From: a virus | IMG/VR virus record: IMGVR_UViG_3300044683_000172 | Location: 1 to 64,000 of that record | DNA length: 64,000 nt | Direction: 5' to 3' (one strand) | In this document: positions 3,766 through 21,063 of the stretch, piece by piece | How the letters are laid out: each line of letters begins with the position of its first letter | Numbering within the stretch: the stretch's first letter is position 1 | The notes under the pieces: model-generated | Database searches by the model: none | Seen by the model: the letters and a program-made list of their open reading frames with translations, nothing else | Told to the model about the DNA's origin: nothing | Made by a program: the position numbers and the translations under genes

Positions 3766-6300
3766 TTATCCTTGATTATTGGATTCACCGTCCGCCATGT
3801 GCGGATTAACATCAGATTCTCGCCAGAATTCGTTTGTGTATGGGCCGCAGTGAGCTTTCTTTGAGTTCAACCAAGCCTTGAAGTCGTCCATCGACAACTC
3901 ATGAATGGAATCAAATCCGTCCCAACCTTCCGAGTAGGATTGGTCATATGCTTCTTTTGCTTCTTCGCGGCTGTCGAACCCGAGCATGCACTTGTGCTCG
4001 TCAAACTCGCCGTCTTTGCTGTTTTGATTGACGATGAACGCCTTTTGGGACTTCATGTTGGGTCCGACAAAGCAATCCATCTCATCGCCATCGGCGCCTT
4101 CGAATCCCTTGATGAAGCCATAGTGGTGCGGCATATTCACGCTCCACTCATCACCGTCCAGGGTGACGCCGCGACGAGTTGTCCCGCGCGGATTTTCGAT
4201 TGCCAGCGTCATGCCGTGAAGCTTGATCTTTGGAAGCTTCCAAGGCGCTTGCTCGGTCGCCACGGACAACGGCCCATGCGTCGATGCTCGGACGGACGAT
4301 GCGACGCCCGGCTTAACCGCGCGGTCTCGGCCGGGGACTTCGCCCGCTCGAATGTCCACACCTTCCGGACGAATCTCATCACTCAGACGCTCAATAACGT
4401 CCGTCATCCGACCCAGGATGTCCATGATTGCAGGCGATACGCCAGCAGCGGCCGGATCAAGCATCGTAGTTTGTTCTTGTTGTGCGCGCTTTTGTGCGGG
4501 CTCTTGGACTTCCGGAACGGCCGCGACCTTTGGAGGGACCTCGGTGGCCTCTGCGCTTTCGTTTGCGCCCATTCCAATCTTGCTGCCCTTGTTGACTTCT
4601 TCCTGGCGCGCACCTGCCGTCACGAGGGATGCCTTCGACTTCTCCTGTTGCGCGCCGGCCTTCTCCAACTCTGCCAGAACATCCGGCGACATGCCCGGCT
4701 CCGAATTCCCATCGTCGTTGCCCAGTCGGTTGTATCCGCTGTACTTGTCGTCCCGAATTCGATTGCGCTCCTCGTCCGGAGACAGCGCGCCGGATTCGAC
4801 CAAGGCAACGCCGGTTTGAGCCTTCGTCAAGTTCAGCTCAGCGCGTTGCTTGGCCGTCATCGAGTCAACAGGCTCCCAAACGTGCTGGATTTTCACCGTC
4901 AGCCCAAGCGACTTCTCCAGCAGCATGTAGTGCCGATCAAGGAGCGGCGACATGTCGTGCTTTTGAATCGATTCAAGTTCTTCGTGATAGTTGATCGTCT
5001 CAAACTCACCAGTAGAATTGAATCCCTTCGGGGACGTTCCCAGAAGCTTCGTTGCAGGAACCTTGCCAATCGCGGATACCAGCTGATACTGGTTCATGAT
5101 GACGGCGTCGAAGTCGGCCAGAGACGTGTCGAATTGCTCCATCGTCTCTTCTTTTCCCAAGACCTTCACTGCGTGATTGTCTCGGTACTTGACCCAGAAC
5201 TTGAGCTTGGCAATGAACTTGTCTTCGTTCAGAATTGCCTTTTCGGTATCGACGTGGATTGCCGTCGTTCGTTTGTTCGTAGCAAGCAGCGGCGCCTCAT
5301 TTGCCGTACGTTCGGCGGCATAGACGCGCTCATAGATGCGCTGGGTCAGCGGGATGCCGCCGAAAATGTACGTCGGCTTCAGAATGTCTGCCGGTTCCGG
5401 ACCGCGAACGATGATGAGGTGGCTTCGGTGATATTTCTTCCCGCTGATGATCCAGTATTCCGGTTCATAGAAGTGGATGGAGGAAGGATCGGCCGTTGCT
5501 TCAGCCGTCAGCATCGGCATCATCCAATACGGATCAACCTGTGAAATGCCCTTGTAGGAGCCCTTAGTAACGCCATCGATGTTGAATGGCTTCTCGTAAT
5601 AACGTTCATCGTCACTTTCCACCTCAAAGATGGCGACGCGGATGCCGAAGATGTTCTTGAATCGAACCAACTGTTTCAGGTTTTCCACCAACCTGAACTT
5701 GAGATCATAGCGCTCCAGCTCATCACGGGTTGCATCGTCCAACTCTTCATCTTCGCTGACCGCCTTGAGTGTCCAGCCGTTCCTCACGGCATCTTCCCCG
5801 GGCATAGAGCACGCCTTGTCCACAAGCCAATGCTGTGCGATAAGAGCGCACGCCTGATATCCGATGAACGACTGGGAAAGATACCAGTTCATCAGCTGCT
5901 CAGGGACTGCATACGGAGTTTGCATTGTTCCGGCCATGCTGGGATCGCACGTGCCGCAGGAATCATCCATTGCGTAAGTCTTCGCAATGGGCACGGCAGA
6001 GTCCATGACCAGGGAAGTGCCTGAGATCGTCTCCACTTTTGAATGGCTCTCATCTTCCAACTCGGCCATGGGGAATGAATCGACCCCTCGCAGAGTGAGG
6101 ATTCGCTCGCCGTCGGTTACGGTCCAACCTTCTTGGCGCCTGACGCGCTCCATCGGGTCCAACGGATCGGTGATCGGGACAAATTCCTGTTTGGCCTCGG
6201 GCGCGCGAGCCTTTCTTTTGCGACCAAACAGTCCGGTGATCTTATTGAGCATGGTGGATTCCGATGGGTGTACGCGCTCAGCCCGTAAGTTCACAGGCAT
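3766..6300 (-). CDS. portal protein with C-terminal inorganic-pyrophosphatase-like domain
   Basis: 844-aa ORF. The first ~530 aa sit in the usual portal position (after terminase, before MuF) and have portal-like size and composition. An acidic/Ala-rich linker follows. The last ~160 aa carry YGFI...DGDEMD...DGEFDEHK, which resembles the family I PPase signature (YGxI, DGDxxD, D..DxK). Confidence 0.7.
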   Translation of the reverse strand: MPVNLRAERVHPSESTMLNKITGLFGRKRKARAPEAKQEFVPITDPLDPMERVRRQEGWTVTDGERILTLRGVDSFPMAELEDESHSKVETISGTSLVMDSAVPIAKTYAMDDSCGTCDPSMAGTMQTPYAVPEQLMNWYLSQSFIGYQACALIAQHWLVDKACSMPGEDAVRNGWTLKAVSEDEELDDATRDELERYDLKFRLVENLKQLVRFKNIFGIRVAIFEVESDDERYYEKPFNIDGVTKGSYKGISQVDPYWMMPMLTAEATADPSSIHFYEPEYWIISGKKYHRSHLIIVRGPEPADILKPTYIFGGIPLTQRIYERVYAAERTANEAPLLATNKRTTAIHVDTEKAILNEDKFIAKLKFWVKYRDNHAVKVLGKEETMEQFDTSLADFDAVIMNQYQLVSAIGKVPATKLLGTSPKGFNSTGEFETINYHEELESIQKHDMSPLLDRHYMLLEKSLGLTVKIQHVWEPVDSMTAKQRAELNLTKAQTGVALVESGALSPDEERNRIRDDKYSGYNRLGNDDGNSEPGMSPDVLAELEKAGAQQEKSKASLVTAGARQEEVNKGSKIGMGANESAEATEVPPKVAAVPEVQEPAQKRAQQEQTTMLDPAAAGVSPAIMDILGRMTDVIERLSDEIRPEGVDIRAGEVPGRDRAVKPGVASSVRASTHGPLSVATEQAPWKLPKIKLHGMTLAIENPRGTTRRGVTLDGDEWSVNMPHHYGFIKGFEGADGDEMDCFVGPNMKSQKAFIVNQNSKDGEFDEHKCMLGFDSREEAKEAYDQSYSEGWDGFDSIHELSMDDFKAWLNSKKAHCGPYTNEFWRESDVNPHMADGESNNQG

Positions 6301-6408
6301 CGCCCGTGAATGGTAGCGATTAATGTCAGTCAGAGATAGTGTTGACTTGCCTGTGCATCAGAAATGGTATAATCTTGTATCACATCAATCAGCTGCCTGG
6401 AGCTAACC

Positions 6409-7242
6409 ATGGATTTCGATGACCTGGAAGACGATATCAACGCAGTGAGGACCAAACAAGTCGCACCCAAGGCGACTTATCGTGATGTGTGCCTGCGTTG
6501 TGGTGGAACCGGACGCTATAACGGCTCGTCATCGCTCGGATATCAATGCTTCCTATGCAAAGGGAAAGGATATCGAGAATACAAACAGTCGCCGGAACAG
6601 AGGGCGCGCGCAAAGACAAATGCCGCCAATCGCAAGGCTAAGAAGCAAGCGCAGAATCTTGAGTTGTTCGAAGCGGCCAACCCGGACTTCAAGGCTTGGT
6701 GGACCAATTCCACGTTCGATTTCGCGATCAGCCTTCGTGAATATGTCATCAAACACGGCGATTTGTCTGACGCACAACGAGCATCTGCACTTCGCTGCAT
6801 CGAGAAGAACAAGGCTTATCGCGCAGCGAAGATGGCAGCAGCAGAGCAAGCCCAGGAAGTGGATTTGAGCGGTGTTCAGGCTGTCTTCGAGCGCGCCCGC
6901 AAGAATGGCTATCACAGCCCAAGGATTTCGATCCTGGTGGGCGAGGATGGGCGATTGGTGCTTTCTCGCGCGCCTGATCACGGAGCCAACGCCGGATCGA
7001 TCTATTTGAAGGTCGGCGACTCATACATGGGCAAGGTTACAGGCGGCAAGTTCTATCGTTCGCGCGATTGCAGCAATGACGAAGAGTCCGACATTGTCGC
7101 GGCACTGCGCGATCCACTCGGCGCCGCCATAAAGTTCGGTCAACGCACCGGCATTTGCTCCTGCTGCAGCCGCAAGCTCACCAACGGTGAATCAATCGAA
7201 CTCGGGATTGGCCCGATCTGCCGAGAAAAGTTCTTTGGATAA
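6409..7242 (+). CDS. zinc-ribbon protein (CxxC..CxxC at N-terminus, CSCC..GPIC at C-terminus), function unknown
   Basis: 277-aa ORF on the opposite strand to the flanking packaging genes. Cys clusters CLRCGG...CFLCKG and GICSCCSRK...GIGPIC. Confidence 0.55.
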   Translation: MDFDDLEDDINAVRTKQVAPKATYRDVCLRCGGTGRYNGSSSLGYQCFLCKGKGYREYKQSPEQRARAKTNAANRKAKKQAQNLELFEAANPDFKAWWTNSTFDFAISLREYVIKHGDLSDAQRASALRCIEKNKAYRAAKMAAAEQAQEVDLSGVQAVFERARKNGYHSPRISILVGEDGRLVLSRAPDHGANAGSIYLKVGDSYMGKVTGGKFYRSRDCSNDEESDIVAALRDPLGAAIKFGQRTGICSCCSRKLTNGESIELGIGPICREKFFG

Positions 7243-7251
7243 GGAGATGAT

Positions 7252-7536
7252 ATGACTCGTTTGCATATGACTAGGTCGGATGCCGTTGAACTTCTGACGA
7301 ATGCCGCGCCAAACGACGCCTTCCAGATCGCGATCAAGAATTTGACGCAGGATGCGCTTGGATATGATTTGGATGGCCAAGGCCGTTCTTTCGTCCTTCT
7401 TCACGTCTCGCGGAATCAAGCGATCCGTGTCGCAAATAACTACATCACGGAAGGGCAGGAAGCGGCCGGTGCGCGCGTTCCGGTTTTCATGAAGCGCGGC
7501 CAGAACGGAAAGTGTACTTATTGCGTTGGATTCTGA
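7252..7536 (+). CDS. hypothetical protein
   Basis: 94-aa ORF 10 bp after the previous stop, same operon. Confidence 0.45.
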   Translation: MTRLHMTRSDAVELLTNAAPNDAFQIAIKNLTQDALGYDLDGQGRSFVLLHVSRNQAIRVANNYITEGQEAAGARVPVFMKRGQNGKCTYCVGF

Positions 7537-7572
7537 CGTATAATTCTGGAACAATCAGAAAGGAATAGAAAG

Positions 7573-8337
7573 ATGGAAGACTTGGAAAAGATCAAGGATC
7601 GCATTTCAAAGCTTCTGGCGATGGCCGATGACGCATCCAGCCCGGAAGAAGCCGCGATTGCTGCAGAGCGCGCTCGCAAGTTGATGGACAAATATCAACT
7701 GGAGCGATTCGATGTGGAAGGGCGCGTCAGCGAAGAGTTTGCATCGATGGCAGCCAGCCGCGCATTCGCGGCGGTTCCTCAATACATGGCCTTCTTGGCA
7801 ACATCCGTCGCCCGATACAACGACTGCCAGGCATTCTTTTCGTTCGATGAAGTCACATTCAAGAAAAAGAATGCGGCCTTCAAAAAGTTCGGCAAAGTCA
7901 TCTCGTTTCGCGGCTACAAGTCCGATGTTGAACTGGCTCATCAAATGTTCACAAAATTGATGAGCGTCGTTGACGGACTTTGCAAGGTATATCTCAAGGA
8001 CAAGGGCTACACCAAATATCCGGTGCGTATCGGCGGCCAGTTCAAGCTTGGCGCAATCATGGTCATCGGAAACCGAATCAACGAGATGGTGAAGGAGCGA
8101 GATGCCATCACATCCTCGTCGGGCAATGCGCTTGTCGTGATCAAGAAAACGGCGGTGGATGAACACTTCGGAAAATGTGAACCGAAGTACGTTAGCGTCA
8201 AACGTGCCGACCGAGACGAAGCAGAGGCCGACGCCCGACGCGCTGGCTACGTGGAGGGCTCCAAGGTCGAAATCGTTGGCTCGTTGGAGTCGGAAGAAGA
8301 GGGCGAGAGTCCGTCTTCGCTTCGACTTTCGGCTTAA
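7573..8337 (+). CDS. DUF2786-like N-terminal domain protein
   Basis: N-terminus KIKDRISKLLAMADDASSPEEAAIAAERARKLMDKYQL matches the DUF2786 pattern common in phage and plasmid proteins. Good RBS (agaaaggaatagaaagATG). Confidence 0.55.
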   Translation: MEDLEKIKDRISKLLAMADDASSPEEAAIAAERARKLMDKYQLERFDVEGRVSEEFASMAASRAFAAVPQYMAFLATSVARYNDCQAFFSFDEVTFKKKNAAFKKFGKVISFRGYKSDVELAHQMFTKLMSVVDGLCKVYLKDKGYTKYPVRIGGQFKLGAIMVIGNRINEMVKERDAITSSSGNALVVIKKTAVDEHFGKCEPKYVSVKRADRDEAEADARRAGYVEGSKVEIVGSLESEEEGESPSSLRLSA

Positions 8338-8514
8338 AACGTGTACGTTCGGGAGCCGAAATTGCTCGGAATTATCAGAAAGGACTGGAGGCGGATTAAT
8401 AGCCTACTTTACTTCCACGAAAAGGTCGCTTGTGCCGTCTTCTTGGCGTTGATCTTCGGAGCGCCATTTGCGGTGAACATGTTCACCCGATAGACTTTCT
8501 GACGGGAGTCTGTC

Positions 8515-8778
8515 ATGAGAACATTCAATTTGTCTGCCGCAAAGCGCGGTGCGAAATTGACGACTCGCAGCGGAAAATCTGCTCGTTTCGTCGGTCACAC
8601 AGCGTGCGCTCCGTCATTCGCCAGGGTTCGAGTCTATGTGGATGGTCGTCCAATCATGGTCAACGAACATGGTCGATTCAGCAATGAGCCGTCGCCGTTT
8701 GACGTCTTCCTTCAAGGCGATCCGGCGCCTTGTGTCACCGATGTGGTGATGGCCGGATGCATTGCCGCGCAGGAGTAG
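8515..8778 (+). CDS. hypothetical protein
   Basis: 87-aa ORF with RBS-like ggagtctgtcATG. Confidence 0.4.
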   Translation: MRTFNLSAAKRGAKLTTRSGKSARFVGHTACAPSFARVRVYVDGRPIMVNEHGRFSNEPSPFDVFLQGDPAPCVTDVVMAGCIAAQE

Positions 8779-8780
8779 TG

Positions 8781-8969
8781 ATGTTGTACCAACGCTACAA
8801 CGCATATACGCGTGATGGCAAGTTCCTCGGAGACTGCTTCGGTTATTCCGATGAAGGCGCCATCAAAATCGCTTCTGTCTTCTACGGCCACAATGAAATG
8901 GAAGTCGGAGTGGTTCCGCAGCACCTGGATAAGAGCGATGCAAGTGTGCGTTTGACGCTATTGCAGTAA
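8781..8969 (+). CDS. hypothetical protein
   Basis: In-frame ATG at 8781 immediately after the previous stop. Confidence 0.35.
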   Translation: MLYQRYNAYTRDGKFLGDCFGYSDEGAIKIASVFYGHNEMEVGVVPQHLDKSDASVRLTLLQ

Positions 8970-9023
8970 AGAAGTTCCGCAGGGCGTCTTCGGATGCCCT
9001 GAACCACCAGAAAGGATAGAACT

Positions 9024-9263
9024 ATGACCCAGAAGCGATATGGCTGCCATAATCGGCCGCAATTGAAGACGTCCATGTTTGCGCAGGTCGGCTATCGCCA
9101 TGAGAAGCACATCTTGGATAACGGATGTGCGCGAACGGTCATGGTGCCGGTGTTCCGTCAGATCAGAACCAACTGGAAAGACGGCTGCAACTATGACCAA
9201 AAGGCAATCGATCCGCGTTGCCTTAACTGCCACCACCAGGAGAAAGACCATGCACATTCGTGA
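9024..9263 (+). CDS. Cys/His-rich small protein (possible zinc binding)
   Basis: 79 aa with CHN...C..C..CLNCHHQEKDH. RBS agaaaggatagaactATG. Confidence 0.4.
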   Translation: MTQKRYGCHNRPQLKTSMFAQVGYRHEKHILDNGCARTVMVPVFRQIRTNWKDGCNYDQKAIDPRCLNCHHQEKDHAHS

Positions 9264-9909
9264 CTTCAGCGCAGCAAACAAAGCGCGCTCCGACAAGGAA
9301 TTCCCATCATGCGCCGATTGGCCGTTGGTCAATTGGATGAATGCCGCGCATGGCGAATTGGGCGAGGCGTCCAATGTTCTAAAGAAGATGCTGCGCGGCG
9401 ACTACGGCCCGAACGGCGAGCGCTCGCCCGAGTTTCTTGCGGCATTCGGCAAGGAGCTTCACGACGCTCTGGCGTACATCGATCTGGCTGCGACATGCGC
9501 CGGTCTGTCGCTGGAAACGGTGACCATCCAGAAGTGGAACGAAGTCAGCGAGCGCATCGGCTCGTCGATGCGCATCGACGCAGATGGGTTGTTCAACATC
9601 GAACAGAAGAAGCATTCCGCACCCGCTCTGGCCAGCGGATCGATCTGGCCTCGCCGTCTGAATCCGGATGAGGTGCGAATCGGTATGCTGGTGCGCTATG
9701 CCAACGGAGAAACGGCCCTGGCCAAGATCGCGTCGCCGCACGCCGGTGGATGGCACGCCCATCAATGCATGGGTGGAATGCTCTTCGTGAGCGCCAATGG
9801 GTATGGCGGCTATCTCTATGAGCCGACCCAACAGGACATCGATACGTGGAACGAGTGCAAGAAGTGGCGCACCGACTTCGGACGGCACGCCGACCCTTCT
9901 GGCGTTTAA
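9250..9909 (+). CDS. MazG-like all-alpha NTP pyrophosphohydrolase domain fused to unknown C-terminal domain
   Basis: AAHGELGEASNVLKK...FGKELHDALAYIDLAA fits the MazG/NTP-PPase EExxE...ELxD pattern. Start at ATG 9250 with RBS ggagaaagacc. Confidence 0.55.
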   Translation: MHIRDFSAANKARSDKEFPSCADWPLVNWMNAAHGELGEASNVLKKMLRGDYGPNGERSPEFLAAFGKELHDALAYIDLAATCAGLSLETVTIQKWNEVSERIGSSMRIDADGLFNIEQKKHSAPALASGSIWPRRLNPDEVRIGMLVRYANGETALAKIASPHAGGWHAHQCMGGMLFVSANGYGGYLYEPTQQDIDTWNECKKWRTDFGRHADPSGV

Positions 9910-11306
9910 AGATCGAAGAATCCTGCCGGGGCGCGCTTCGGCTTGATCAAGGACATGATTACGGCGTCGGCGATGTTTGGCGATTTGATTCCGCGCTTTT
10001 CTTTCATGTCCTTCTTCGATTCCACTTTGAACTTGCCCATCCCATCAATGTCCTTTCGGGGTGCGGCAAGTTCTTGGCACATCTTGTTGAGGGTCTTTTC
10101 GCCTACCATGGCGACAATCGCGTCTTTGTCGATTGAAACGAGTTCGTCAAATGGGTGATCGACACCCAAGACGACTGCTTCATAAGTCTTTCGGAACATC
10201 GATGCAACGCGATCCCACATCTGCGCCTTGATGTTCGAAAAGTGCTCTCTGTTGAGAATCTTGACGTGAGGCAATTCCATGTACACGCCGTCCGGCTCAA
10301 GAACGCTGCCGCCTGCGTTGAACGGGTTGTAGCTCAGAATGAATCCATCATTGTTCGAGTCATTCAACTCAGCAAACTTCGATCCAACGTGCGCTCCTAC
10401 GCCGATGGAGTCGAAGTTCACTTCTGCGCCATACACCTTTGCGGCATTGTAGACGCGCGTCGAAGATTTCAGAATTTCGTTCTCCAGCCCATCCCATTCT
10501 TCAACGTGATCGATGATGTTTCCGGTGCAACCGACCAAGGCATTCTTGTCGTCTCCGTCGTCTGCAACGTCGAAACCCATCACGCGCTTGCCTTCCTTTT
10601 TCCAGCCAAGCTTCTTGTGGGCGTCGATTGCGGCAAGTACATATTCAAGACTGATGACGCTCTTGTCGCCGCCAGTCTTTGGAATCCCTCCATAGACGTG
10701 TTCGGCGTTCTTCCGATCCTTGCGGTATGCGTCGGCAATGACCTTTAGCATCGTGTCGCTGAGGAATGGATTCAGTTGCCAATTGAACAGCCGCTGGATC
10801 GAGTCTTCCGGTGGATCAACAACGAAGTATTGATACACAAAGTCCATCATCTCATCTGGGTTCCAGATGATCCAAATCTGGGAGCCTTTCTTACGAATTG
10901 TCGGCTCGATGACGTTCCATTGGTCTTGTGTCAAGTAGTGAGCTTCTTCTAGCCAGAGGATATCGACGCCTTCAGTGGACTTGATTTCGCTCAGGTTACG
11001 AGCGATACCGTAGAACAGAAACGATGAGCCGGTGCGCTTGTTGACAATCGAGTTCTTCAGAATTTGGAAGTCATTGCGCCATGGGCTATCTTCGATCTTG
11101 TCTTTCAGAAGAGTGTACACCGATTCATCAATGCGGTTCTGGAACTGACGTGCGCAAAGAATCTTCAGTGTGAAGTTGGCCGCGAGATACACTGCAATGC
11201 CGGCAGCGTCGTGGGACTTGCCGGACGCACGTCCGCCATACAGGACTTTGTAGCGCTTGCGTGCGCGCCAGAAGTCCTTCAGATAAGGGTTGAGACGGTA
11301 AGCCAT
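9906..11306 (-). CDS. terL: terminase large subunit
   Basis: Walker A GGRASGKS, WLEEAH, IWNPDE nuclease and ATPase motifs. 466 aa. Confidence 0.9.
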   Translation of the reverse strand: MAYRLNPYLKDFWRARKRYKVLYGGRASGKSHDAAGIAVYLAANFTLKILCARQFQNRIDESVYTLLKDKIEDSPWRNDFQILKNSIVNKRTGSSFLFYGIARNLSEIKSTEGVDILWLEEAHYLTQDQWNVIEPTIRKKGSQIWIIWNPDEMMDFVYQYFVVDPPEDSIQRLFNWQLNPFLSDTMLKVIADAYRKDRKNAEHVYGGIPKTGGDKSVISLEYVLAAIDAHKKLGWKKEGKRVMGFDVADDGDDKNALVGCTGNIIDHVEEWDGLENEILKSSTRVYNAAKVYGAEVNFDSIGVGAHVGSKFAELNDSNNDGFILSYNPFNAGGSVLEPDGVYMELPHVKILNREHFSNIKAQMWDRVASMFRKTYEAVVLGVDHPFDELVSIDKDAIVAMVGEKTLNKMCQELAAPRKDIDGMGKFKVESKKDMKEKRGIKSPNIADAVIMSLIKPKRAPAGFFDL

Positions 11307-11511
11307 GCAGTGTCCTCAGATGTCATACGGCCACTATTGTATGGACTGAGGTTCACCAAAGATACGTCGCACGCAATCGAATATCAGAATTCCCGACCAA
11401 ATCATAGGGATATCACAAATATGTTGCCTGCTCGTCAGAAATGGAGCAATATTCACTCATGCGATGAACGTTGTCAATCAAACGGACTACGCAGAAGTTG
11501 AAGAAATTTCT

Positions 11512-11539
11512 TTGACTTGTTTGTTCGGTGCCCTATAAT
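11512..11539 (+). promoter_or_regulatory. sigma70-like promoter (TTGACT-16nt-TATAAT) for the early plus-strand operon
   Basis: Near-consensus -35 and -10 hexamers about 50 bp upstream of the first early ORF. Confidence 0.55.
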
Positions 11540-11588: not shown

Positions 11589-12287
11589 ATGAAAACCATT
11601 GCTGATATCAAGGCTGCGACCACTTCGGAACTGGTTGCGTTCTGGAACGAGCACGCAGAATCTCAGATCAAGAAGTTTTCCGATCGAAAGACCGCCGAGG
11701 CCCGCTGCATCAAGCTTCTCGAAGGTCTGATTGCTACCGGCGACATCGACGCTGGCAGCGAAAAGAAGACGGAAGACGAAGACCTGAAGGCCGCTGCTGA
11801 ATCGGCGACGAAGGCCGCCAAGGCAGCTGAAGCAGCAGCCGAATCCGCCAAGGCAGCAGCGAAAACGGTCGAAACCGTGGTCAAGCACCACGAAGAAATC
11901 GAAAAGCGCGATGCGGTCGGCGCGTCCTGGCTCCGCGAAGCCGAGGCGGCCGCGAACGCCAAGAAAGCCCAAGGCGGAACGCCCAAGGAAGTGTCCGAAG
12001 CGGCGCAAAAGGCTTCCCTGGCCCATCGGTCGGCCTCGAACGCCGCTGGCGTAGCGGCCAGCTGGCACGATCCAGAAGTGCGGGCGGCCCGCCAAAAGCG
12101 CGACGGCGTTACGGTGGAGGTTGACGGAAAGAAGACTTCGCATAAGAGTACGCGAGACGCCTTCCGCCACTATCGCCTGCCGGACTCGAAGCACATTCGC
12201 TTCCGCATGCGCCTGAAGGAGTCGCGCTCGGAAGTCTTCGAGCACAACGGCAAGAAGTACAAATTCACGATGGGGTCGGACGAGTAA
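11589..12287 (+). CDS. hypothetical Ala/Lys/Glu-rich protein
   Basis: In-frame ATG at 11589 after RBS gaaagacgag. Central AKAAEAAAESAKAA low-complexity helix. Confidence 0.5.
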   Translation: MKTIADIKAATTSELVAFWNEHAESQIKKFSDRKTAEARCIKLLEGLIATGDIDAGSEKKTEDEDLKAAAESATKAAKAAEAAAESAKAAAKTVETVVKHHEEIEKRDAVGASWLREAEAAANAKKAQGGTPKEVSEAAQKASLAHRSASNAAGVAASWHDPEVRAARQKRDGVTVEVDGKKTSHKSTRDAFRHYRLPDSKHIRFRMRLKESRSEVFEHNGKKYKFTMGSDE

Positions 12288-12364
12288 GAACAAGAGCGGG
12301 GAGAAGTCGGCTTGTGGGCGGTCCGAGGGTCGCCCATCTTTTTGAATTCAACCGGACACAAGAT

Positions 12365-12505
12365 ATGCCGAACAATCGAAAGTTTGACCGTCGCGCTGCC
12401 AATCGGGATCGCTTCGAAGATCGTGGCCGAAAGGCGAAGGCTTATTCGCGGACCGAACGCCGCGACTCGAAGCGTGCTGCTCGAAATTGGGCGCTGGAGG
12501 GTTGA
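12365..12505 (+). CDS. small basic hypothetical protein
   Basis: 46-aa Arg/Lys-rich ORF. Confidence 0.3.
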   Translation: MPNNRKFDRRAANRDRFEDRGRKAKAYSRTERRDSKRAARNWALEG

Positions 12506-12507
12506 TC

Positions 12508-12807
12508 ATGAACTATATCAAGCGCCAGTTCTGGGAAGAAGTCCGTCAACTCGCCACATTCTTTGTTACGCAGTGGTTTGAGCCGACGGAACCGCCCGTG
12601 CACATCGGATGGTATGAGACGGTGGCCATTCTGGATGAGAGTCGCCCGGCTCCTGCCGATACAGACGATGGATATATGGCCTTCTGGGACGGCAACGAAT
12701 GGAAAATCTTCGACCGCCAGGAATGGTTTGACGGTGATCGTTGGCACAAGGCTCGAATCGTTACCGCAAGGCACCAAACGCGATACTGGCGAGGCCATCA
12801 CAAATGA
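12508..12807 (+). CDS. hypothetical protein
   Basis: ATG 12508 after ggagggttgatc. Confidence 0.45.
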   Translation: MNYIKRQFWEEVRQLATFFVTQWFEPTEPPVHIGWYETVAILDESRPAPADTDDGYMAFWDGNEWKIFDRQEWFDGDRWHKARIVTARHQTRYWRGHHK

Positions 12808-13016
12808 TCGAAGACCTGCAATTCAGCATGTTTCTGAACGTCGTCGAAGACACGCTGAAGCGCAATCGTTGCAAGGCCGATTTGAACGCTCTTGAGATCG
12901 GCCTTGCTCGAAAGGCGTACGCCAATGGTGAACCCGCATATATTGCGGCTTCGGTTATCGTCTCATATCGCCTTCACGAATTCCGTAAGATGCCTACATC
13001 GCCAACCATTCACTAG
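12804..13016 (+). CDS. hypothetical protein
   Basis: ATG overlaps the upstream stop (ATGA). Confidence 0.4.
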   Translation: MIEDLQFSMFLNVVEDTLKRNRCKADLNALEIGLARKAYANGEPAYIAASVIVSYRLHEFRKMPTSPTIH

Positions 13017-13025
13017 GAGAACAAG

Positions 13026-13247
13026 ATGAATTTCATGCCAACCCAAATCACCATCGCCGTCCGCACGCTGTCTGGCCGGATGTACCCTCCCATCTTGGAC
13101 GGGATCGCGTGCGAGCCGATTCGCGTTGCTTGCCGTCACCTTCGTGATGAGCGCGCCATCGCCGACGGCGAATTCACCAGGCTGAAGAAGTCTTTGGTGC
13201 TGTTTGACGAAGCAGTCAAGCAAAAGAATAAGTCGAAGGTTCACTGA
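13026..13247 (+). CDS. hypothetical protein
   Basis: 73-aa ORF with RBS aggagaacaagATG. Confidence 0.4.
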   Translation: MNFMPTQITIAVRTLSGRMYPPILDGIACEPIRVACRHLRDERAIADGEFTRLKKSLVLFDEAVKQKNKSKVH

Positions 13248-13582
13248 TGTTCGACCATATCATCCACGAACATCCGGACGACCGCGCACGGAGAATCGCC
13301 GCGAGTCTGGCGAGCAATCCGATCTTCAACCGACTGAATGGAGCACAACGGCCCATGTCCGAACTTCTTCCTTTCCTGAAGGACGTCACGCGTGCAGAAA
13401 AGGCGAGCGCCCAGGCCGTCTCAGAGGCCGTCGAAAACCTGGACGCGGTCCTGTTCACCGGTGACCTGTTTTTCGATGCGGAGCGCGTGAGCCAGCTGGA
13501 GAATCTTCTGAACCGCTGGCGGAATCAGGCCGTCATCTGTCGCAGAATCGCCAGCGATATCGCGGCCGGAGACGGCCAATGA
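13247..13582 (+). CDS. hypothetical protein
   Basis: Start overlaps the previous stop. Confidence 0.45.
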   Translation: MFDHIIHEHPDDRARRIAASLASNPIFNRLNGAQRPMSELLPFLKDVTRAEKASAQAVSEAVENLDAVLFTGDLFFDAERVSQLENLLNRWRNQAVICRRIASDIAAGDGQ

Positions 13583-13914
13583 CCTTTTACTACACAGGAC
13601 GCGATCCTGTGGCAGACCTGCTCAAGATGTTCGAAGGGACGACGAAAGTTCAGGATGTCGTCGCCATCGGATGGCTGGATTTGACAGGTCGCCAGATCGG
13701 ATACGGCCGCGCTCAGCAGATTCTCAGTCTTCTGAACAAGAACATGGGCATCAACTCGTCCGGACCGATGGAAGCGACGGCAATCGACAGCCTACGGACC
13801 ATCGGGAACCAGATCGGCCACCAAAAGGCGCAGCGAATCCTGCAACTGCTGTGGGCGGACTATCTCAGAAAATGCGGCCATCCAATGGAAGGCGCGTTGA
13901 GTGGAGACCTTTGA
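13579..13914 (+). CDS. hypothetical protein
   Basis: Start overlaps the previous stop (ATGA). Confidence 0.45.
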   Translation: MTFYYTGRDPVADLLKMFEGTTKVQDVVAIGWLDLTGRQIGYGRAQQILSLLNKNMGINSSGPMEATAIDSLRTIGNQIGHQKAQRILQLLWADYLRKCGHPMEGALSGDL

Positions 13915-14016
13915 CACGTCCAACTCCTTCGCAAAATGATCATCCGCATCCTGGCAGCATCCGTTATCCTTGCTTTCTTCCTCTTTTGCTCGCCAATCTT
14001 GGCGTAAGGAGTCGTC

Positions 14017-14229
14017 TTGAAAATCTTTCTCAAGTTGGCGTTGATTCTCGCCATGGTGATGCTGATCTCCTTCATGTTGGGAGTCGTCTCGCCGATCCTT
14101 ATCAACTCCGATTCGTGGATCGGCATTGCCGTGCTGCCATTCGTGTGGTTGGCCGTAATCGGCGCCAACATCGTCGTGATCAAGCTTACTTTCTTCTCAA
14201 CCCTCCAACAACAAAAGGAGAACAAATGA
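14017..14229 (+). CDS. small two-TM membrane protein (possible NfeD-like partner of the SPFH protein)
   Basis: 70 aa, two hydrophobic helices. Overlaps the start of the SPFH gene. Confidence 0.5.
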   Translation: MKIFLKLALILAMVMLISFMLGVVSPILINSDSWIGIAVLPFVWLAVIGANIVVIKLTFFSTLQQQKENK

Positions 14230-15050
14230 AACGATTCCGTTCGCTCATCCTCGCGGCCTTCATCGGCTGCATGTCGCTTCTCGCTGGCTGCGACAACGTT
14301 CCGGCAGGCCACGTCGGCATCCAGGTCTCGCGCTACGGCGGCGACCGAGGCGTCAACATCGACGTGAAACAGCCGGGCCGATATTTCAACGGCTGGAACG
14401 TGGACATGTTCCTGTTCCCCACGTTCACCCAATCGCATGTCTGGGACAAGGCCGGTTCCGATGAATCGTTCACGTTCCAAACGGTCGAAGGCCTGAGCGT
14501 CAACACCGATGTCGGGATCAGCTATACCATCGCGCCCGAGAATGCTGCGAAGGTCTTCCAGAAATATCGGCGAGGTGTCGATGAGATCACGGCCGTGTAC
14601 CTTCGTGCCATGGTCCGCGATACGCTCAACCTTGCCGGCGCCCGTATGGCAATCGAAGACGTGTACGGCAAGGGCAAAGCTGATCTTCAGAAGAGCGTGG
14701 AAGACGACGTGAAGAAGCAAGCCGCGAGCGTCGGCATCACGGTCGAATCCGTGTACTTCGTGAATGAGATGCGATTGCCGCCTTCCGTCGTGAACTCGAT
14801 CAACGCGAAGATCGCCGCGACGCAAGTTGCCCAGCAGAAGGAAAACGAGCTACGCGCAGCCGAGGCGGATGCGGCCAAGGCGATTGCCCAGGCCAAGGGC
14901 GAAGCCGAAGCGACACGAATCCGTGGCGAGGCGCTACGATCCAGCCCGCAGGCGCTCCAGCAGTTGGCAATCGAGCGCTGGGACGGCAAGTTGCCTCAGT
15001 ACATCGGCGCCGGTCAGCCGGTCCCGTTTGTCGGCGCGACGGTGAAGTGA
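14226..15050 (+). CDS. SPFH/band-7 (stomatin/prohibitin-like) lipoprotein
   Basis: N-terminal MKRFRSLILAAFIGCMSLLAGC (signal plus lipobox), then SPFH-like core and a C-terminal Ala/Glu-rich coiled coil (AQQKENELRAAEADAAKAIAQAKGEAEA). RBS aaaaggagaacaaATG. The longer 13671 start in the ORF track overlaps upstream genes and is rejected. Confidence 0.65.
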   Translation: MKRFRSLILAAFIGCMSLLAGCDNVPAGHVGIQVSRYGGDRGVNIDVKQPGRYFNGWNVDMFLFPTFTQSHVWDKAGSDESFTFQTVEGLSVNTDVGISYTIAPENAAKVFQKYRRGVDEITAVYLRAMVRDTLNLAGARMAIEDVYGKGKADLQKSVEDDVKKQAASVGITVESVYFVNEMRLPPSVVNSINAKIAATQVAQQKENELRAAEADAAKAIAQAKGEAEATRIRGEALRSSPQALQQLAIERWDGKLPQYIGAGQPVPFVGATVK

Positions 15051-15277
15051 TGGCCAAGATGATGTTGGACGGCGAGCGCCGTGTGATCAAACGCATCGGA
15101 TGCGATATCGACCAGGGCGGCCTGTCCATGGATGTCGTGGCGATTCGGATTGACAGCGAAACTCCATATGTCGCTCTGAAGCACGGCAACCAGGAGTTCG
15201 TCTTCACCGACTCTGAGGCATCCGAACTCGCCGCGCGGATCAAGAAGGCTTTGGCGATCCTTCCATCCAGCAAATAG
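15047..15277 (+). CDS. hypothetical protein
   Basis: 76-aa ORF overlapping the upstream stop. Confidence 0.4.
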   Translation: MMAKMMLDGERRVIKRIGCDIDQGGLSMDVVAIRIDSETPYVALKHGNQEFVFTDSEASELAARIKKALAILPSSK

Positions 15278-15308
15278 CCCTTCACTTCAGTCGGATTTCT
15301 GATAGTTG

Positions 15309-15337
15309 TTGCCCGCGCCTCAAAACGCGGGCATAAT
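15309..15337 (+). promoter_or_regulatory. promoter-like TTGCCC-17nt-CATAAT whose spacer is a GC hairpin (also a likely terminator for the upstream gene)
   Basis: cccgcgcctcaaaacgcggg hairpin embedded between the -35-like and CATAAT elements. Confidence 0.4.
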
Positions 15338-15376
15338 TCTTTCTACGGTGATTGACCGTGCTAACCGAGAACTGAA

Positions 15377-15706
15377 ATGAACGCCAACCAAATTCTGCGT
15401 GGATTCCAAGCCCTCAACCAATCGGTACTCGGAGATAAGGTTACGGGCGACATTTTTGCTGATTGGGCAGCGGCGAGCGACGAACTCAAACGCGCGGCAA
15501 CGGAAGAGAAGAAGCGCCAGGACGCTCACGATCAATCGGAATTCGCCAAGGATGTGGCCGATGCTCAATACTACAAATCCGAAGACTTCCGACGGGACGT
15601 CATCGAAGCCCTTGTTGAAGAAGGCTGCACGGAACTTCAGGCCAACGGACGTACGCGCGATCAGTTCCACCTCTTCAAAGAGGCCCAACGGCTCGGTTTG
15701 ATGTGA
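15377..15706 (+). CDS. hypothetical protein
   Basis: 109-aa ORF. Confidence 0.45.
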   Translation: MNANQILRGFQALNQSVLGDKVTGDIFADWAAASDELKRAATEEKKRQDAHDQSEFAKDVADAQYYKSEDFRRDVIEALVEEGCTELQANGRTRDQFHLFKEAQRLGLM

Positions 15707-15724
15707 ATATTTTTGATATTCTGC

Positions 15725-15753
15725 TTGCCGACTCTCAAAAATACATGCATAAT
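15725..15753 (+). promoter_or_regulatory. sigma70-like promoter TTGCCG-17nt-CATAAT
   Basis: Spacing and hexamers fit. Same CATAAT -10 seen at other early-gene junctions. Confidence 0.45.
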
Positions 15754-15786
15754 CTCTTTACTGACTAACGCAACTAAGCGAACGAA

Positions 15787-15936: not shown

Positions 15937-15938
15937 TC

Positions 15939-16142: not shown

Positions 16143-16311
16143 GTCTGAGAATATCATGCTCACGTTCAAACTCAACGGCTATACTTACCGGACGAATGCC
16201 GACGCATCGACAGTGGAATATCTTCACGATGGCGTTTGGATTCGCACGACCTCTTTCCGCGTTATCTCAGCCGCCAGAACGGCGCTGGGTCTTTAACTCA
16301 GGAGATTTAAC

Positions 16312-16560: not shown

Positions 16561-16572
16561 CTAGGTCGGCCA

Positions 16573-20481: not shown

Positions 20482-21063
20482 TTATTTCTTTGTGTTCTTG
20501 GCACCATCGGACACATATTCGGGCGCGTCTTCGGTCGATTCCTCGTCGCCTTCCGCGATACCGGCAGCCTGCAACGCATCAGAACGGGCCGCTGCCGTCT
20601 CTTCGTCCATCTCAGGGATGGATTCATAGAATGCGTTGAGGTTCTTCACGGCACGTGTTTTTCCGTTCTCATCCACAAAAGTGATGTTAGCCAGAACATT
20701 CAACTCCTTGATAGCCGCGAGTTGAGTGGAGCACTTGACAAATGGATTGTGCACCATTTGCAGAAGCGAATTGATGGACTTCTTTTGGTTCCACAGCTTA
20801 TCCATCGGCATTTCTGCGAGTCGCTGTTGGAATGTGTTTTGGAACCACGGATTCTGCTCGATCTGCTCGGCGTACATCGAAACGTCTTCAGCACGGTAGC
20901 CAGGGCCAAATGCGCGTCGGAATGCGGTGTACGGCGTAAAGCCATCGATGCGATTCTTCACGTATGACTCATATTGAGGCAAGTTTGCGAGAGCCATACG
21001 CTCTTCAGCAAACATCCTCGGGTCATACGGATCGTGCTCGAATTCGCCTGTCGCTTTGCTCAT
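20482..21063 (-). CDS. hypothetical protein (candidate DNA-binding, iteron-binding or small terminase-like; unassigned)
   Basis: 193-aa ORF with acidic C-terminus, transcribed away from the CAACTAT repeat array. Confidence 0.45.
   Translation of the reverse strand: MSKATGEFEHDPYDPRMFAEERMALANLPQYESYVKNRIDGFTPYTAFRRAFGPGYRAEDVSMYAEQIEQNPWFQNTFQQRLAEMPMDKLWNQKKSINSLLQMVHNPFVKCSTQLAAIKELNVLANITFVDENGKTRAVKNLNAFYESIPEMDEETAAARSDALQAAGIAEGDEESTEDAPEYVSDGAKNTKK

What the first reader, a model, noticed from the sequence alone, without database searches (positions are those of the whole stretch)
6409..9909. Opposite-strand cargo island inserted between the large terminase and the portal
Packaging genes are normally contiguous. 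Here about 3.5 kb of plus-strand genes split terL from the portal: a Zn-ribbon protein (6409-7242), a DUF2786-like protein (7573-8337), several small ORFs including a Cys/His-rich one (9024-9263), and a MazG-like NTP pyrophosphatase fused to an unknown domain (9250-9909). The island has its own TATAAT-containing promoter motif (7532-7544) and no terminase small subunit. Moron-like placement and content (nucleotide pyrophosphatase, Zn-finger proteins) are reminiscent of anti-defence or host-takeover loci. Phage MazG-type enzymes have been implicated in degrading alarmone or signalling nucleotides.
Basis: partly seen in the sequence, partly recalled or inferred. Interest (0 to 1): 0.55.

Follow-up and report, generated by a model that had tools for sequence, protein, structure and literature searches.

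The report
Conserved early-gene block splitting packaging genes
The 3.5 kb of opposite-strand genes between this phage's large terminase and portal genes is real, but it is the standard early, probably host-takeover, gene cassette of PB1-like phages and not a newly inserted cargo or anti-defence island.

Summary
Seven plus-strand genes (6409-9909) lie between a minus-strand portal-InPase fusion (3766-6300) and a minus-strand terL (9906-11306).

The window is a PB1-like (Pbunavirus/Carpasinavirus-related) myophage. Almost every relative with terL at least 58% identical has an opposite-strand block at this position, from 1 kb (Luteibacter phage Pluto) to 7 kb (phage 14-1). Burkholderia phage Maja is the exception.

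- **Core genes.** The DUF2786/DUF7168 gene (7573-8337) is nearly invariant. The DUF6011 zinc-finger gene (6409-7242) occurs in about half of the relatives. It is the full-length homologue (43% identity) of 14-1 gp12, reported to bind the RNA polymerase alpha subunit and inhibit host transcription.
- **Variable part.** Only the 3' part (8515-9909) is sporadic. It holds a small Cys-rich protein coupled to a DCTPP1/RS21-C6-like MazG-type NTP pyrophosphohydrolase. That enzyme is fused to an undescribed small beta domain, possibly SH3/Tudor-like.
- **Promoter.** The block is headed by the window's only extended -10 promoter (TGGTATAAT, 6365-6373).
- **Small terminase.** TerS is not missing. It lies at 20482-21063, as in Pbunaviruses, where TerS and TerL genes are also separated.
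- **Anti-defence.** The experimentally defined Pbunavirus anti-defence island is on the other side of terL.

Verdict: an ordinary clade feature, with a mildly interesting accessory enzyme.

The parts
3766..6300 (-). Left boundary: portal protein fused to a C-terminal InPase (inorganic pyrophosphatase) domain. It is the first gene of the minus-strand structural operon. A public gene call starts it at 6252.
   Evidence: Pfam Phage_portal_3 E=3e-90 and InPase E=1e-48. PHROG 4660 and 146. 50-54% identical to the portals of 14-1, Carpasina and Maja.
6342..6373 (+). Promoter heading the block. -35-like TTGACT (6342-6347) and TTGCCT (6347-6352), then an extended -10, TGGTATAAT (6365-6373).
   Evidence: Read from the sequence. 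It is the only TGnTATAAT in the 64 kb. Exact TATAAT is under-represented: 9 found, about 19 expected. Sigma-70-like boxes lie at the same place in relatives L087, L007, L011, Pluto and 14-1. The tool's own scan missed it because the spacers are 20 and 15 nt.
6409..7242 (+). Gene A, 277 aa. DnaJ-type CxxCxGxG x2 zinc finger, a helical and alpha/beta middle part, and a C-terminal DUF6011 zinc motif. It is the homologue of phage 14-1 gp12, an RNA polymerase alpha-subunit binder.
7252..7536 (+). Gene B, 94 aa. An ORFan.
   Evidence: Ribosome-binding site GGAGA and coding-type GC pattern. No Pfam, PHROG or NCBIfam hit and no tblastn hit in 50,697 phage records.
7539..7544 (+). A possible weak internal promoter for gene C.
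   Evidence: The exact hexamer is present. The best -35 match is 2 of 6 and there is no TG extension.
7573..8337 (+). Gene C, 254 aa, DUF2786 plus DUF7168. The near-invariant anchor gene of the block across the clade. Its biochemical function is unknown.
   Evidence: Pfam E=1e-12 and 1e-10. PHROG 421 E=2e-47. 43-59% identical homologues lie between portal and terL in 14-1 ORF09, Carpasina gp03, Pluto_00240 and 34 IMG/VR loci. No PDB relative by sequence or by profile.
8515..8778 (+). Gene E, 87 aa. A variable accessory gene.
   Evidence: Ribosome-binding site GGGAG. Called in the public contig. Only weak hits in unrelated phages: Achromobacter Mano E=6e-7, Pseudomonas Boevelstad E=7e-4.
8781..8969 (+). 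Gene F, 62 aa. A variable accessory gene.
   Evidence: Ribosome-binding site AGGAG. Called in the public contig. No family hit.
9024..9263 (+). Gene G, 79 aa, Cys/His-rich and probably zinc-binding. It overlaps the start of H by 14 nt, which suggests translational coupling.
   Evidence: 38% identical (pairwise E=1e-16) to the 75-aa protein just upstream of the H homologue in L087. Cys residues at query positions 8, 55, 66 and 69 are aligned. A second copy is in L105. Otherwise an ORFan.
9250..9909 (+). Gene H, 219 aa. N-terminal all-alpha NTP pyrophosphohydrolase (aa 1-102, DCTPP1/RS21-C6-like MazG type), a disordered linker, and a C-terminal small beta domain (about aa 137-209) with no Pfam model. 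Its stop codon overlaps that of terL.
   Evidence: See for the N-domain. Motifs GELGE (ExxE) and ELHD (ExxD) are kept. Model pLDDT 88. The C-domain has 97 representative clusters. In other proteins it is fused to dATP-dGTP_PPHyd (3), MazG (3), MazG-like (1), Lar (3) and a DnaJ zinc finger (1). Fold hints for the C-domain are weak: Tudor and KOW matches at probability about 0.65. A 41%-identical full-length homologue sits at the same position in L087.
9906..11306 (-). Right boundary: large terminase. A lone minus-strand gene with plus-strand blocks on both sides. It converges on H with a 4-nt overlap and no terminator between them.
   Evidence: Terminase_3 E=1e-32. 62-68% identical to the terL of 14-1, Maja and Carpasina. 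Sequence of the overlap. Terminator-like sites are no more frequent than in shuffles: 5 found, 5.8 expected.
20482..21063 (-). It is encoded 9 kb from terL.
   Evidence: PDB 7uxe 'Small terminase' (10 chains) E=5e-30 over aa 11-176. 40% identical to 14-1 ORF76 and 38% to Carpasina gp78. PMC12390725 states that Pbunavirus TerL and TerS genes are separated.

Best explanation
The block is the clade-conserved, divergently transcribed early gene cassette of a PB1-like virulent myophage. It is not an insertion.

**Shown**
- The gene order is portal(-) | A-B-C-E-F-G-H(+) | terL(-).
- The same layout, with homologous A and C genes in the same order, occurs throughout Pbunavirus, Carpasinavirus and unclassified relatives.
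- A sigma-70-type extended -10 promoter heads the block.
- TerS lies elsewhere in the genome.

**Inferred**
- On infection, host sigma-70 RNA polymerase starts at 6365-6373 and transcribes rightward, away from the portal/late operon.
- Because H and terL overlap convergently with no terminator, early transcription probably runs antisense into terL. That may help keep terL silent early.
- Gene A, like its homologue 14-1 gp12, binds the alpha subunit of host RNA polymerase. It either shuts down host and early transcription or redirects the enzyme to phage middle/late promoters.
- Gene C (DUF2786/DUF7168) is a core early function of unknown biochemistry. In distant phages its relatives sit at the boundary of replication and packaging modules.
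- The 3' tail (E, F, G, H) is the exchangeable accessory part.
- G plus H most likely form a zinc-protein/NTP-pyrophosphohydrolase pair that hydrolyses a (d)NTP-type nucleotide to the monophosphate plus PPi, for nucleotide-pool sanitation or conditioning during infection. The substrate is unknown.
For: **Architecture and conservation**
- In the unbiased terL-seeded scan, every relative with terL 61-65% identical and enough flanking DNA had the block.
- In the scan seeded with gene C, 19 loci carry portal, C and terL together in this orientation. A further 15 carry C with one of the two.
- Block length ranges from about 1 kb (Pluto, C only) to 7 kb (14-1).

**Promoter**
- Three of the nine exact TATAAT hexamers in the window head the plus-strand genes A, C and U1.

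**Gene A and gp12**
- Homology: (43% identity, E=7e-77, full length), with the identity PP141_gp12 = ORF12 = the DUF6011 protein.
- Function of gp12: PMC10914365 and PMC6748951, both citing Van den Bossche et al. 2014.
- PB1-like phages have no RNA polymerase of their own (PMC3008698). Phage 14-1 has a second, non-sigma-70 promoter class that is inactive without phage factors.
- In an unrelated 167-kb phage, the A homologue is again the first gene of an operon divergent from the packaging module.

**TerS elsewhere**

**Gene H**
- The G-H pair is conserved in the closest relative.
Against: - No expression data exist for this phage. 'Early' rests on promoter type, strand and analogy with 14-1.
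- The gp12-RNA polymerase interaction is known to me only through secondary citations. It was shown for a protein 43% identical, in a different host.
- The -35 spacing of the main promoter is non-canonical (20 or 15 nt), so the call rests on the extended -10.
- The function of gene C is unknown. It could belong to replication rather than takeover.
- Nothing here shows the substrate of H. Its Pfam MazG scores are below threshold.
- The C-seeded scan is biased towards loci that contain C.
Confidence: 0.68

Rival explanations
1. The block is a counter-defence locus whose proteins (Zn-fingers, MazG enzyme) neutralise host immunity, for example by degrading signalling or alarmone nucleotides.
For: - The 3' part is sporadic among relatives, as anti-defence genes usually are.
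- H is a MazG-type enzyme. A phage MazG-like enzyme (Atd1) has been proposed as a candidate to cleave hyperphosphorylated nucleotide messengers (Ho et al. 2023, as cited in PMC12846349).
- The C-terminal domain of H is also found fused to Lar restriction-alleviation domains.
Against: - The core genes A and C are conserved across the clade, not variable.
- In Pbunaviruses all mapped anti-defence genes lie outside the terL-portal block. In 14-1 the island gp80-88 is at 62.5-65.2 kb. In Banzai the genes are 071rev, 087, 097 and 105, whereas the block is 002-017.
- Gene A's characterised homologue targets RNA polymerase, not immunity.
- Cyanophage MazG does not hydrolyse (p)ppGpp (Rihtman 2019, cited).
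- No island protein matches a PADLOC model.
Confidence: 0.15
2. A recently acquired mobile cargo (moron) that was inserted between two formerly adjacent packaging genes.
For: - The opposite strand, its own promoter, and ORFan content (genes B, F, G).
- In Bcepfunavirus Maja and in a distant relative (L013), terL does abut the portal on the same strand.
Against: - The block is present in the same place, with homologous core genes, in Pbunavirus, Carpasinavirus, Pluto and more than 30 metagenomic relatives. It therefore predates their divergence.
- GC content is 0.50-0.60, like the flanks.
- There are no flanking direct or inverted repeats, no tRNA, no integrase and no terminator.
Confidence: 0.04
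3. A replication or recombination accessory module. Gene C (and perhaps A) acts on phage DNA replication or the replication-to-packaging switch, not on host takeover.
For: In distant phages, C-like genes sit next to:
- an SF2 helicase (L132),
- a primase-helicase plus family-A DNA polymerase (L136),
- an Enc34-type ssDNA-binding protein (L135),
- TerS-TerL-portal on the same strand, directly upstream (L125).

In Stenotrophomonas phage AXL1, a DUF2786 protein lies in the replication module. A DUF6011 protein directly precedes the C-like gene in L130.
Against: - In this genome the replication genes (primase 23904-25007, helicase-primase 21588-23348) are far away and on the other strand.
- C shows no nucleic-acid-enzyme motif and has no PDB relative.
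- Gene A's homologue has a reported RNA polymerase target.
Confidence: 0.1
4. A hidden packaging function: one of the block's proteins is the missing small terminase or another motor or structural component.
For: The location between terL and the portal.
Against: - The true TerS is at 20482-21063 (PDB 7uxe, E=5e-30).
- TerL and TerS are also separated in Pbunaviruses.
- No block protein hits any head, packaging or terminase family in Pfam, PHROG or NCBIfam.
Confidence: 0.03

Closest known systems
Pseudomonas phage 14-1 (Pbunavirus) genes PP141_gp04-gp17, the opposite-strand block between terL (ORF04) and the portal/'minor head protein' (ORF17)
   Same: Same position and orientation relative to terL and the portal. 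It contains the homologue of A (gp12/ORF12, 43% identity) upstream of the homologue of C (gp08/ORF09, 44% identity). A sigma-70-like box lies at the portal-proximal end. TerS (ORF76) is encoded far away.
   Different: It is 7 kb with 14 genes, against 3.5 kb with 7 genes here. It also carries a methyltransferase and other genes absent from this window. It has no G-H (MazG fusion) pair. DNA similarity is below detection.
Xanthomonas phage Carpasina gp02-gp05 and Luteibacter phage Pluto gene 00240 (minimal versions of the block)
   Same: The same terL | opposite-strand block | portal-InPase layout. The C homologue is present (47% in Carpasina). Carpasina gp02 carries the C-terminal domain of H (38% identity). 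Carpasina gp04 is a partial A homologue.
   Different: Pluto's block is the C gene alone (about 1 kb), and its NTP pyrophosphohydrolase is in the block on the other side of terL. In Carpasina the H-type domain is not fused to a MazG domain.
Metagenomic contig JGI 3300049049 Ga0498755_001644 (L087/L092), the closest relative found
   Same: terL 78% and portal 73% identical. The block ends with the same G-like (38%) and H-like (41%, full-length fusion) genes, and has the same 4-nt convergent overlap with terL.
   Different: It lacks genes A, B, E and F. Its block is C, G and H only.
14-1 gp12 family (DUF6011 proteins): RNA polymerase alpha-subunit-binding transcription inhibitor
   Same: Full-length homology. 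Conserved N-terminal CxxCxGxG pair and C-terminal CxxC...GIGPIC motif.
   Different: RNA polymerase binding has not been tested for this protein, and the host is unknown and different. The family is far wider than PB1-like phages: at least 282 clusters, including a 167-kb Ralstonia phage and many large contigs.
All-alpha NTP pyrophosphohydrolases: mammalian DCTPP1/RS21-C6, phage MazG proteins (cyanophage MazG, S-2L MazZ, Atd1)
   Different: It falls below all Pfam MazG thresholds. It has a 4-residue deletion where DCTPP1 has FHQPRN near the base pocket, so specificity cannot be transferred. It is fused to an extra beta domain and coupled to a Cys-rich partner.
Pbunavirus 'anti-defense island' (14-1 gp80-88: Bdi1, Bdi2, gp82, anti-END/ZadI-1)
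   Same: Also an opposite-strand block of small genes, variable between relatives, adjoining terL.
   Different: It lies on the other side of terL, between TerS and TerL. In this window that corresponds to the plus-strand block 11589 to about 20370, not to 6409-9909. No homology to the genes of the finding was seen.

Membership tests
PB1-like (Pbunavirus/Carpasinavirus-type) terL-portal early block | terL and portal on one strand, separated by a block of genes on the other strand | tested here: met
   The same layout is in 14-1, Carpasina, Pluto and IMG/VR relatives.
PB1-like (Pbunavirus/Carpasinavirus-type) terL-portal early block | A DUF2786/DUF7168 gene inside the block | tested here: met
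   7573-8337: Pfam E=1e-12 and 1e-10. 43-59% identical to the block gene of relatives.
PB1-like (Pbunavirus/Carpasinavirus-type) terL-portal early block | A gp12-type DUF6011 gene upstream of the DUF2786 gene | tested here: met
   6409-7242. The same order holds in 21 related loci.
PB1-like (Pbunavirus/Carpasinavirus-type) terL-portal early block | Small terminase encoded apart from terL; portal fused to InPase | tested here: met
   TerS at 20482-21063. Portal-InPase fusion. Literature statement for Pbunavirus.
PB1-like (Pbunavirus/Carpasinavirus-type) terL-portal early block | Early, host-RNA-polymerase-dependent transcription | not testable with these tools
   Only promoter-like sequences could be shown.
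14-1 gp12 family (RNA polymerase alpha-binding protein) | Full-length sequence homology to PP141_gp12 | tested here: met
   43% identity over aa 3-277, E=7e-77.
14-1 gp12 family (RNA polymerase alpha-binding protein) | Conserved zinc-binding cysteines at both ends | tested here: met
   Invariant C28, C31, C47, C50, C250, C253 and C271 in 58 sequences.
14-1 gp12 family (RNA polymerase alpha-binding protein) | Binds the RNA polymerase alpha subunit and inhibits transcription | not testable with these tools
   Reported for 14-1 gp12 only.
MazG-like / all-alpha NTP pyrophosphohydrolase superfamily (DCTPP1/RS21-C6 branch) | Four-helix all-alpha NTP-PPase fold | tested here: met
MazG-like / all-alpha NTP pyrophosphohydrolase superfamily (DCTPP1/RS21-C6 branch) | ExxE ... 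ExxD metal-binding motifs | tested here: met
   GELGE and ELHD align with GEVGE and ELSD of DCTPP1.
MazG-like / all-alpha NTP pyrophosphohydrolase superfamily (DCTPP1/RS21-C6 branch) | Passes a curated Pfam, NCBIfam or PHROG MazG model | tested here: not met
   No Pfam or NCBIfam hit. PHROG 229 reaches only E=0.0012. I therefore file it as 'MazG-like by fold and motifs', not as a member of a curated family.
MazG-like / all-alpha NTP pyrophosphohydrolase superfamily (DCTPP1/RS21-C6 branch) | NTP to NMP + PPi activity, and substrate specificity | not testable with these tools
   The base-pocket region differs from DCTPP1.
Phage anti-defence island | Gene content varies between close relatives | tested here: inconclusive
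   Met for E-H, but not for the core genes A and C.
Phage anti-defence island | Positional equivalence or homology to experimentally defined anti-defence genes of the clade | tested here: not met
   The known genes lie on the other side of terL. Sequence homology to Bdi1, Bdi2, gp82 and ZadI-1 was not tested.
Phage anti-defence island | Demonstrated inhibition of a defence system | not testable with these tools
   Needs an experiment.
Moron | Own promoter and terminator, atypical composition, absence from relatives | tested here: not met
   A promoter is present, but there is no terminator. GC content matches the flanks. The block is present in relatives.
Small terminase | Homology to a TerS family | tested here: not met
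   No block protein matches one. The real TerS is at 20482-21063.

The most novel reading that the evidence does not exclude
The translationally coupled G-H pair is a new two-part counter-defence or nucleotide-pool module. G is a Cys-rich zinc protein. H is a DCTPP1-like NTP pyrophosphohydrolase fused to an undescribed small beta domain with weak Tudor/KOW-like fold hints.

In this reading the beta domain recurs on phage NTP pyrophosphohydrolases and Lar-type proteins because it acts as a targeting or sensing domain. The enzyme would remove a defence-made nucleotide, for example viperin-type ddhNTPs, alarmones or modified dNTPs.

Separately, the gp12-type protein A has a confidently predicted fold with no PDB counterpart. 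It could represent a widespread, structurally new class of RNA polymerase alpha-subunit hijackers.
Probability: 0.15. Interest if true: 0.6.

Novelty: new member of a known kind. Interest (0 to 1): 0.28.

Why it matters
The main value is a correction. In PB1-like phages the packaging genes (TerS, TerL, portal) are each separated by opposite-strand early blocks. A terL-portal gap filled with reverse-strand genes is therefore a clade hallmark and not a sign of recent cargo insertion. Automated 'island' or 'moron' calls in this group should be discounted.

Two leads are worth a modest follow-up:
- **The gp12/DUF6011 family.** It is large (at least 282 clusters), is confidently predicted to adopt a fold unlike anything in the PDB, and has a reported RNA polymerase alpha-subunit target. 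That makes it a good candidate for structural work on host-transcription takeover.
- **The beta domain of H.** A previously undescribed domain of about 70 aa recurs on phage NTP pyrophosphohydrolases. Here it is paired with a Cys-rich partner. It could mark a specific nucleotide-targeting function.

Phages of this group are used therapeutically against Pseudomonas, so knowing which blocks are core and which are accessory helps engineering.

Tried and rejected
- **Near and distant DNA searches of the block against 50,697 phage records.** Only short patches of 65-80% identity were found, in genes A, C and the portal. There is no close isolate relative.
- **terL-seeded IMG/VR scan.** No relative above 65% identity. 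The closest, at 78%, came only through the H protein look-up.
- **PDB sequence and profile searches.** Nothing for A or C.
- **Family libraries.** NCBIfam and PADLOC scans of all block proteins found nothing.
- **Homologue searches for G.** Only the sequence itself was found.
- **RNA structure in the 177-nt C-E spacer.** Not different from shuffles, z = -0.86.
- **A shared phage-specific promoter motif.** Sought by exact k-mer counting across the window. Nothing convincing. The CTGGG-type motif described for 14-1 was not searched for systematically.
- **U1 (11589-12287) as a TerS candidate.** Prompted by a Pfam Terminase_6 hit at E=0.13. Rejected because there is no PDB match and the real TerS was found at 20482-21063.
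- **Supplementary TSS tables of the 14-1 transcriptome paper.** Not held in the library, so 'early' timing of the 14-1 block could not be confirmed from primary data.
- **Literature on DUF2786 and DUF6011.** No functional information.

Full report
**What is there.** The window is almost a whole phage genome. Minus-strand structural genes run from the portal at 3766-6300 leftwards and wrap to the window's right end.

The portal (Phage_portal_3, E=3e-90) carries a C-terminal InPase domain (E=1e-48). The large terminase (Terminase_3, E=1e-32) is at 9906-11306, also on the minus strand.

Seven plus-strand genes lie between them:
- A, 6409-7242
- B, 7252-7536
- C, 7573-8337
- E, 8515-8778
- F, 8781-8969
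- G, 9024-9263
- H, 9250-9909

Each has an AGGA/GGAG-type ribosome-binding site. All but E show the genome's codon-position GC pattern; E has an unusually high GC2 of 0.52. An independent gene call on an identical public contig gives the same set. A short ORF at 8341-8493 has no ribosome-binding site, and I do not count it.

**What phage this is.** terL is 62-68% identical and the portal 50-54% identical to those of Pseudomonas phage 14-1 (Pbunavirus), Xanthomonas phage Carpasina and Burkholderia phage Maja. There is no close isolate relative at the DNA level. The closest sequence found is a 6.8-kb JGI metagenome contig, L087/L092, with terL 78% and portal 73% identical.

**The block is a clade feature, not an insertion.**
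- In 14-1, terL (ORF04) is a lone gene on one strand. It is followed by 14 opposite-strand genes (gp04-gp17, 7 kb) and then the portal.
- In Carpasina the same gap holds four opposite-strand genes, 2.5 kb.
- In Luteibacter phage Pluto it holds one gene.
- A terL-seeded scan of IMG/VR is unbiased with respect to block content. Every contig with terL 61-65% identical and enough flanking DNA showed terL | opposite-strand block | portal.
- A scan seeded with gene C found 19 loci holding portal, C and terL together in this orientation. A further 15 held C with one of the two.
- C homologues (43-59% identity) occur in all of these except L011. A homologues occur in about 21 loci, always upstream of C. 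This includes 14-1 gp12/ORF12 (43% identity over the full length, E=7e-77) and 14-1 ORF09 for C.
- terL abuts the portal on the same strand only in Bcepfunavirus Maja and in a much more distant relative (L013, terL 47%).
- The block's GC content (0.50-0.60) matches its flanks.
- It has no flanking repeats of note, no tRNA, and no more terminator-like sites than shuffled sequence.

The block is thus ancestral to the Pbunavirus/Carpasinavirus group. It has a conserved core (A, C) and an exchangeable 3' tail.

**The 'missing' small terminase.** The 193-aa product of 20482-21063 (minus strand) matches PDB 7uxe 'Small terminase' (ten chains) at E=5e-30 across its length. It also matches 14-1 ORF76 and Carpasina gp78.

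A 2025 description of Pbunavirus Banzai states that the TerL and TerS genes are separated in this genus, as reported for phage E217 (PMC12390725). In this clade TerS, TerL and the portal are each separated by opposite-strand blocks. The premise that packaging genes should be contiguous does not apply.

**Promoters.** The 108-bp spacer between the portal ORF (ATG at 6300) and gene A contains TTGACT/TTGCCT followed by TGGTATAAT (6342-6373). It is the only extended -10 (TGnTATAAT) in the window. Exact TATAAT is under-represented, with 9 found against about 19 expected from composition. Three of the nine lie just upstream of the plus-strand genes A (6368), C (7539) and U1 (11534).

Sigma-70-like boxes occupy the equivalent spacer in L087, L007, L011, Pluto and 14-1. 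It may be a weak internal promoter.

H and terL converge and overlap by 4 nt (TTTAA), with no terminator between them. The same overlap is seen in L087. I infer that transcription of the block reads antisense into terL. This is not shown.

**Gene A.**
- It has a C-terminal DUF6011 motif (CxxC...GIGPIC). All of these cysteines are invariant in 58 homologues.
- The family is large, with at least 282 clusters at 90% identity, and extends to unrelated large phages.
- In one 167-kb phage, the homologue is again the first gene of an operon divergent from the terminase/portal module.
- Its 14-1 homologue, gp12 (PP141_gp12), is reported to bind the alpha subunit of P. aeruginosa RNA polymerase and inhibit transcription. 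It has been proposed to redirect the enzyme to the non-sigma-70 promoter class of 14-1 (Van den Bossche et al. 2014, as cited in PMC10914365 and PMC6748951).
- PB1-like phages encode no polymerase of their own.

Gene A is the best functional anchor for the block: a host-transcription takeover factor. The homology is shown. The activity is inferred.

**Gene C.** The DUF2786 plus DUF7168 architecture is clear, but there is no PDB relative by sequence or profile and no functional literature.

In more distant phages, C-like genes sit in varied contexts:
- directly upstream of TerS-TerL-portal on the same strand (L125)
- near a TerS (L126)
- just after a DUF6011 protein (L130)
- beside an SF2 helicase (L132)
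- beside a primase-helicase and family-A polymerase (L136)
- beside an Enc34-type ssDNA-binding protein (L135)

C therefore looks like a core early or replication-boundary gene. It does not look like an anti-defence gene or a packaging component. Its biochemistry is open.

**The variable tail, G and H.**
- B and G have no homologue in 50,697 isolate phage genomes, and E has only weak ones.
- G (5 Cys, 7 His) is 38% identical to the small protein that precedes the H homologue in L087, with four cysteines aligned. It overlaps H's start by 14 nt.
- H's N-terminal 100 residues form an all-alpha NTP pyrophosphohydrolase:
  - 45% identical to annotated phage MazG-like proteins
  - DCTPP1 is the best PDB sequence match (E=0.002), with ExxE and ExxD aligned
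  - Foldseek probability 1.0 to mouse and human dCTPase
- H scores below every curated Pfam or NCBIfam MazG model. It also differs from DCTPP1 near the base pocket, so no substrate can be assigned.
- The C-terminal domain of about 70 residues is confidently modelled (pLDDT about 95) and has no Pfam model. An exhaustive search found 97 representative clusters. The domain stands alone or is fused to dATP/dGTP pyrophosphohydrolase (3), MazG (3), MazG-like (1), Lar (3) or DnaJ-finger (1) domains. Its fold hints (Tudor, KOW, SH3) are weak.
- Only three full-length H-type fusions were found in 5.8 billion clusters.
- In Pluto and in L010 the NTP pyrophosphohydrolase sits in the other early block. 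This shows that the enzyme is a movable accessory.

**Anti-defence reading.** Atd1 (Ho et al. 2023) is an example, although cyanophage MazG does not cleave (p)ppGpp.

However, in Pbunaviruses every mapped anti-defence gene lies outside the terL-portal block. Phage 14-1 gp80-88 has been named the 'anti-defense island' (PMC13307970) and sits at 62.5-65.2 kb, between TerS and TerL. In Banzai the anti-defence genes are 071rev, 087, 097 and 105, while the terL-portal block is 002-017.

The positional counterpart in this window is the plus-strand block from 11589 to about 20370, not the finding. I therefore give the anti-defence reading about 0.15 for the block as a whole. It is somewhat more likely for G-H alone.

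**Verdict.** Interest is low to moderate. It rests on the gp12-type protein family (large, no structural counterpart in the PDB, reported RNA polymerase target) and on the uncharacterised domain fused to the MazG-type enzyme.

Noticed in passing
window 3766-6300 (-): The portal protein is fused to a C-terminal InPase (predicted inorganic pyrophosphatase) domain, aa 683-812. The fusion is shared by 14-1, Carpasina, Maja and Pluto, where it is annotated 'minor head protein' or 'inorganic pyrophosphatase'. What a pyrophosphatase does on a portal is unexplained here.
   Followed up: partly
window 20482-21063 (-): The small terminase (PDB 7uxe, E=5e-30) is encoded 9 kb from terL. TerS, TerL and the portal are each separated by opposite-strand blocks.
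   Followed up: yes
window 11589-20370 (+): A second opposite-strand block lies between terL and TerS. It is the positional counterpart of the 14-1 region that contains the experimentally defined anti-defence island (gp80-88). Almost all of its ORFs have no family hit. One 459-aa product (13671-15050) matches PHROG 200 'lipoprotein'. This block, not the finding, is where anti-defence candidates should be sought.
   Followed up: partly
window 11589-12287 (+): U1, a 232-aa protein (PHROG 4730), is divergently transcribed from terL behind a near-consensus promoter (TTGACT-16-TATAAT, 11512-11539). It is conserved next to terL in Carpasina, Pluto and many contigs. Its 14-1 homologue (gp77) instead sits next to TerS. 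It has weak sub-threshold hits to Terminase_6 (E=0.13) and a type II REase model (E=0.005). Its function is unknown.
   Followed up: partly
window 6347-6367 and 11424-11444 (+): A 21-nt box, TTGCCTGnnCnTCAGAAATGG, occurs exactly twice in the window. Both copies lie in the spacers that head the two plus-strand blocks flanking terL. The first overlaps the -35 and spacer of the gene A promoter. It could be a shared early promoter or operator. It is not conserved in the closest relative, L087.
   Followed up: partly
window 11448-11477 (-): terL has its own sigma-70-like promoter (TTGACA-18-AATATT), about 135 nt upstream of its start and back to back with the U1 promoter. This is unexpected for a late packaging gene.
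   Followed up: no
window 29276-29550 (+): The 10-11-mer (G)CGCGAAGCCG recurs at 29277, 29343, 29475 and 29541, with spacings of 66 and 132 nt. CGAAGAAGGA recurs at 29503 and 29527. This indicates an internally repetitive coding region within the ORFs at 29165-29998.
   Followed up: no
L130 2773-3705 and 3989-4696; L125 2301-6672: Outside the PB1-like clade, a DUF6011 protein again directly precedes a DUF2786-type gene (L130). In L125 the DUF2786-type gene directly precedes TerS-TerL-portal on the same strand. This hints at an old linkage of these genes with the packaging-module boundary.
   Followed up: partly
whole window: Exact TATAAT is under-represented: 9 occurrences on both strands against about 19 expected from base composition. 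No tRNA genes are present.
   Followed up: partly
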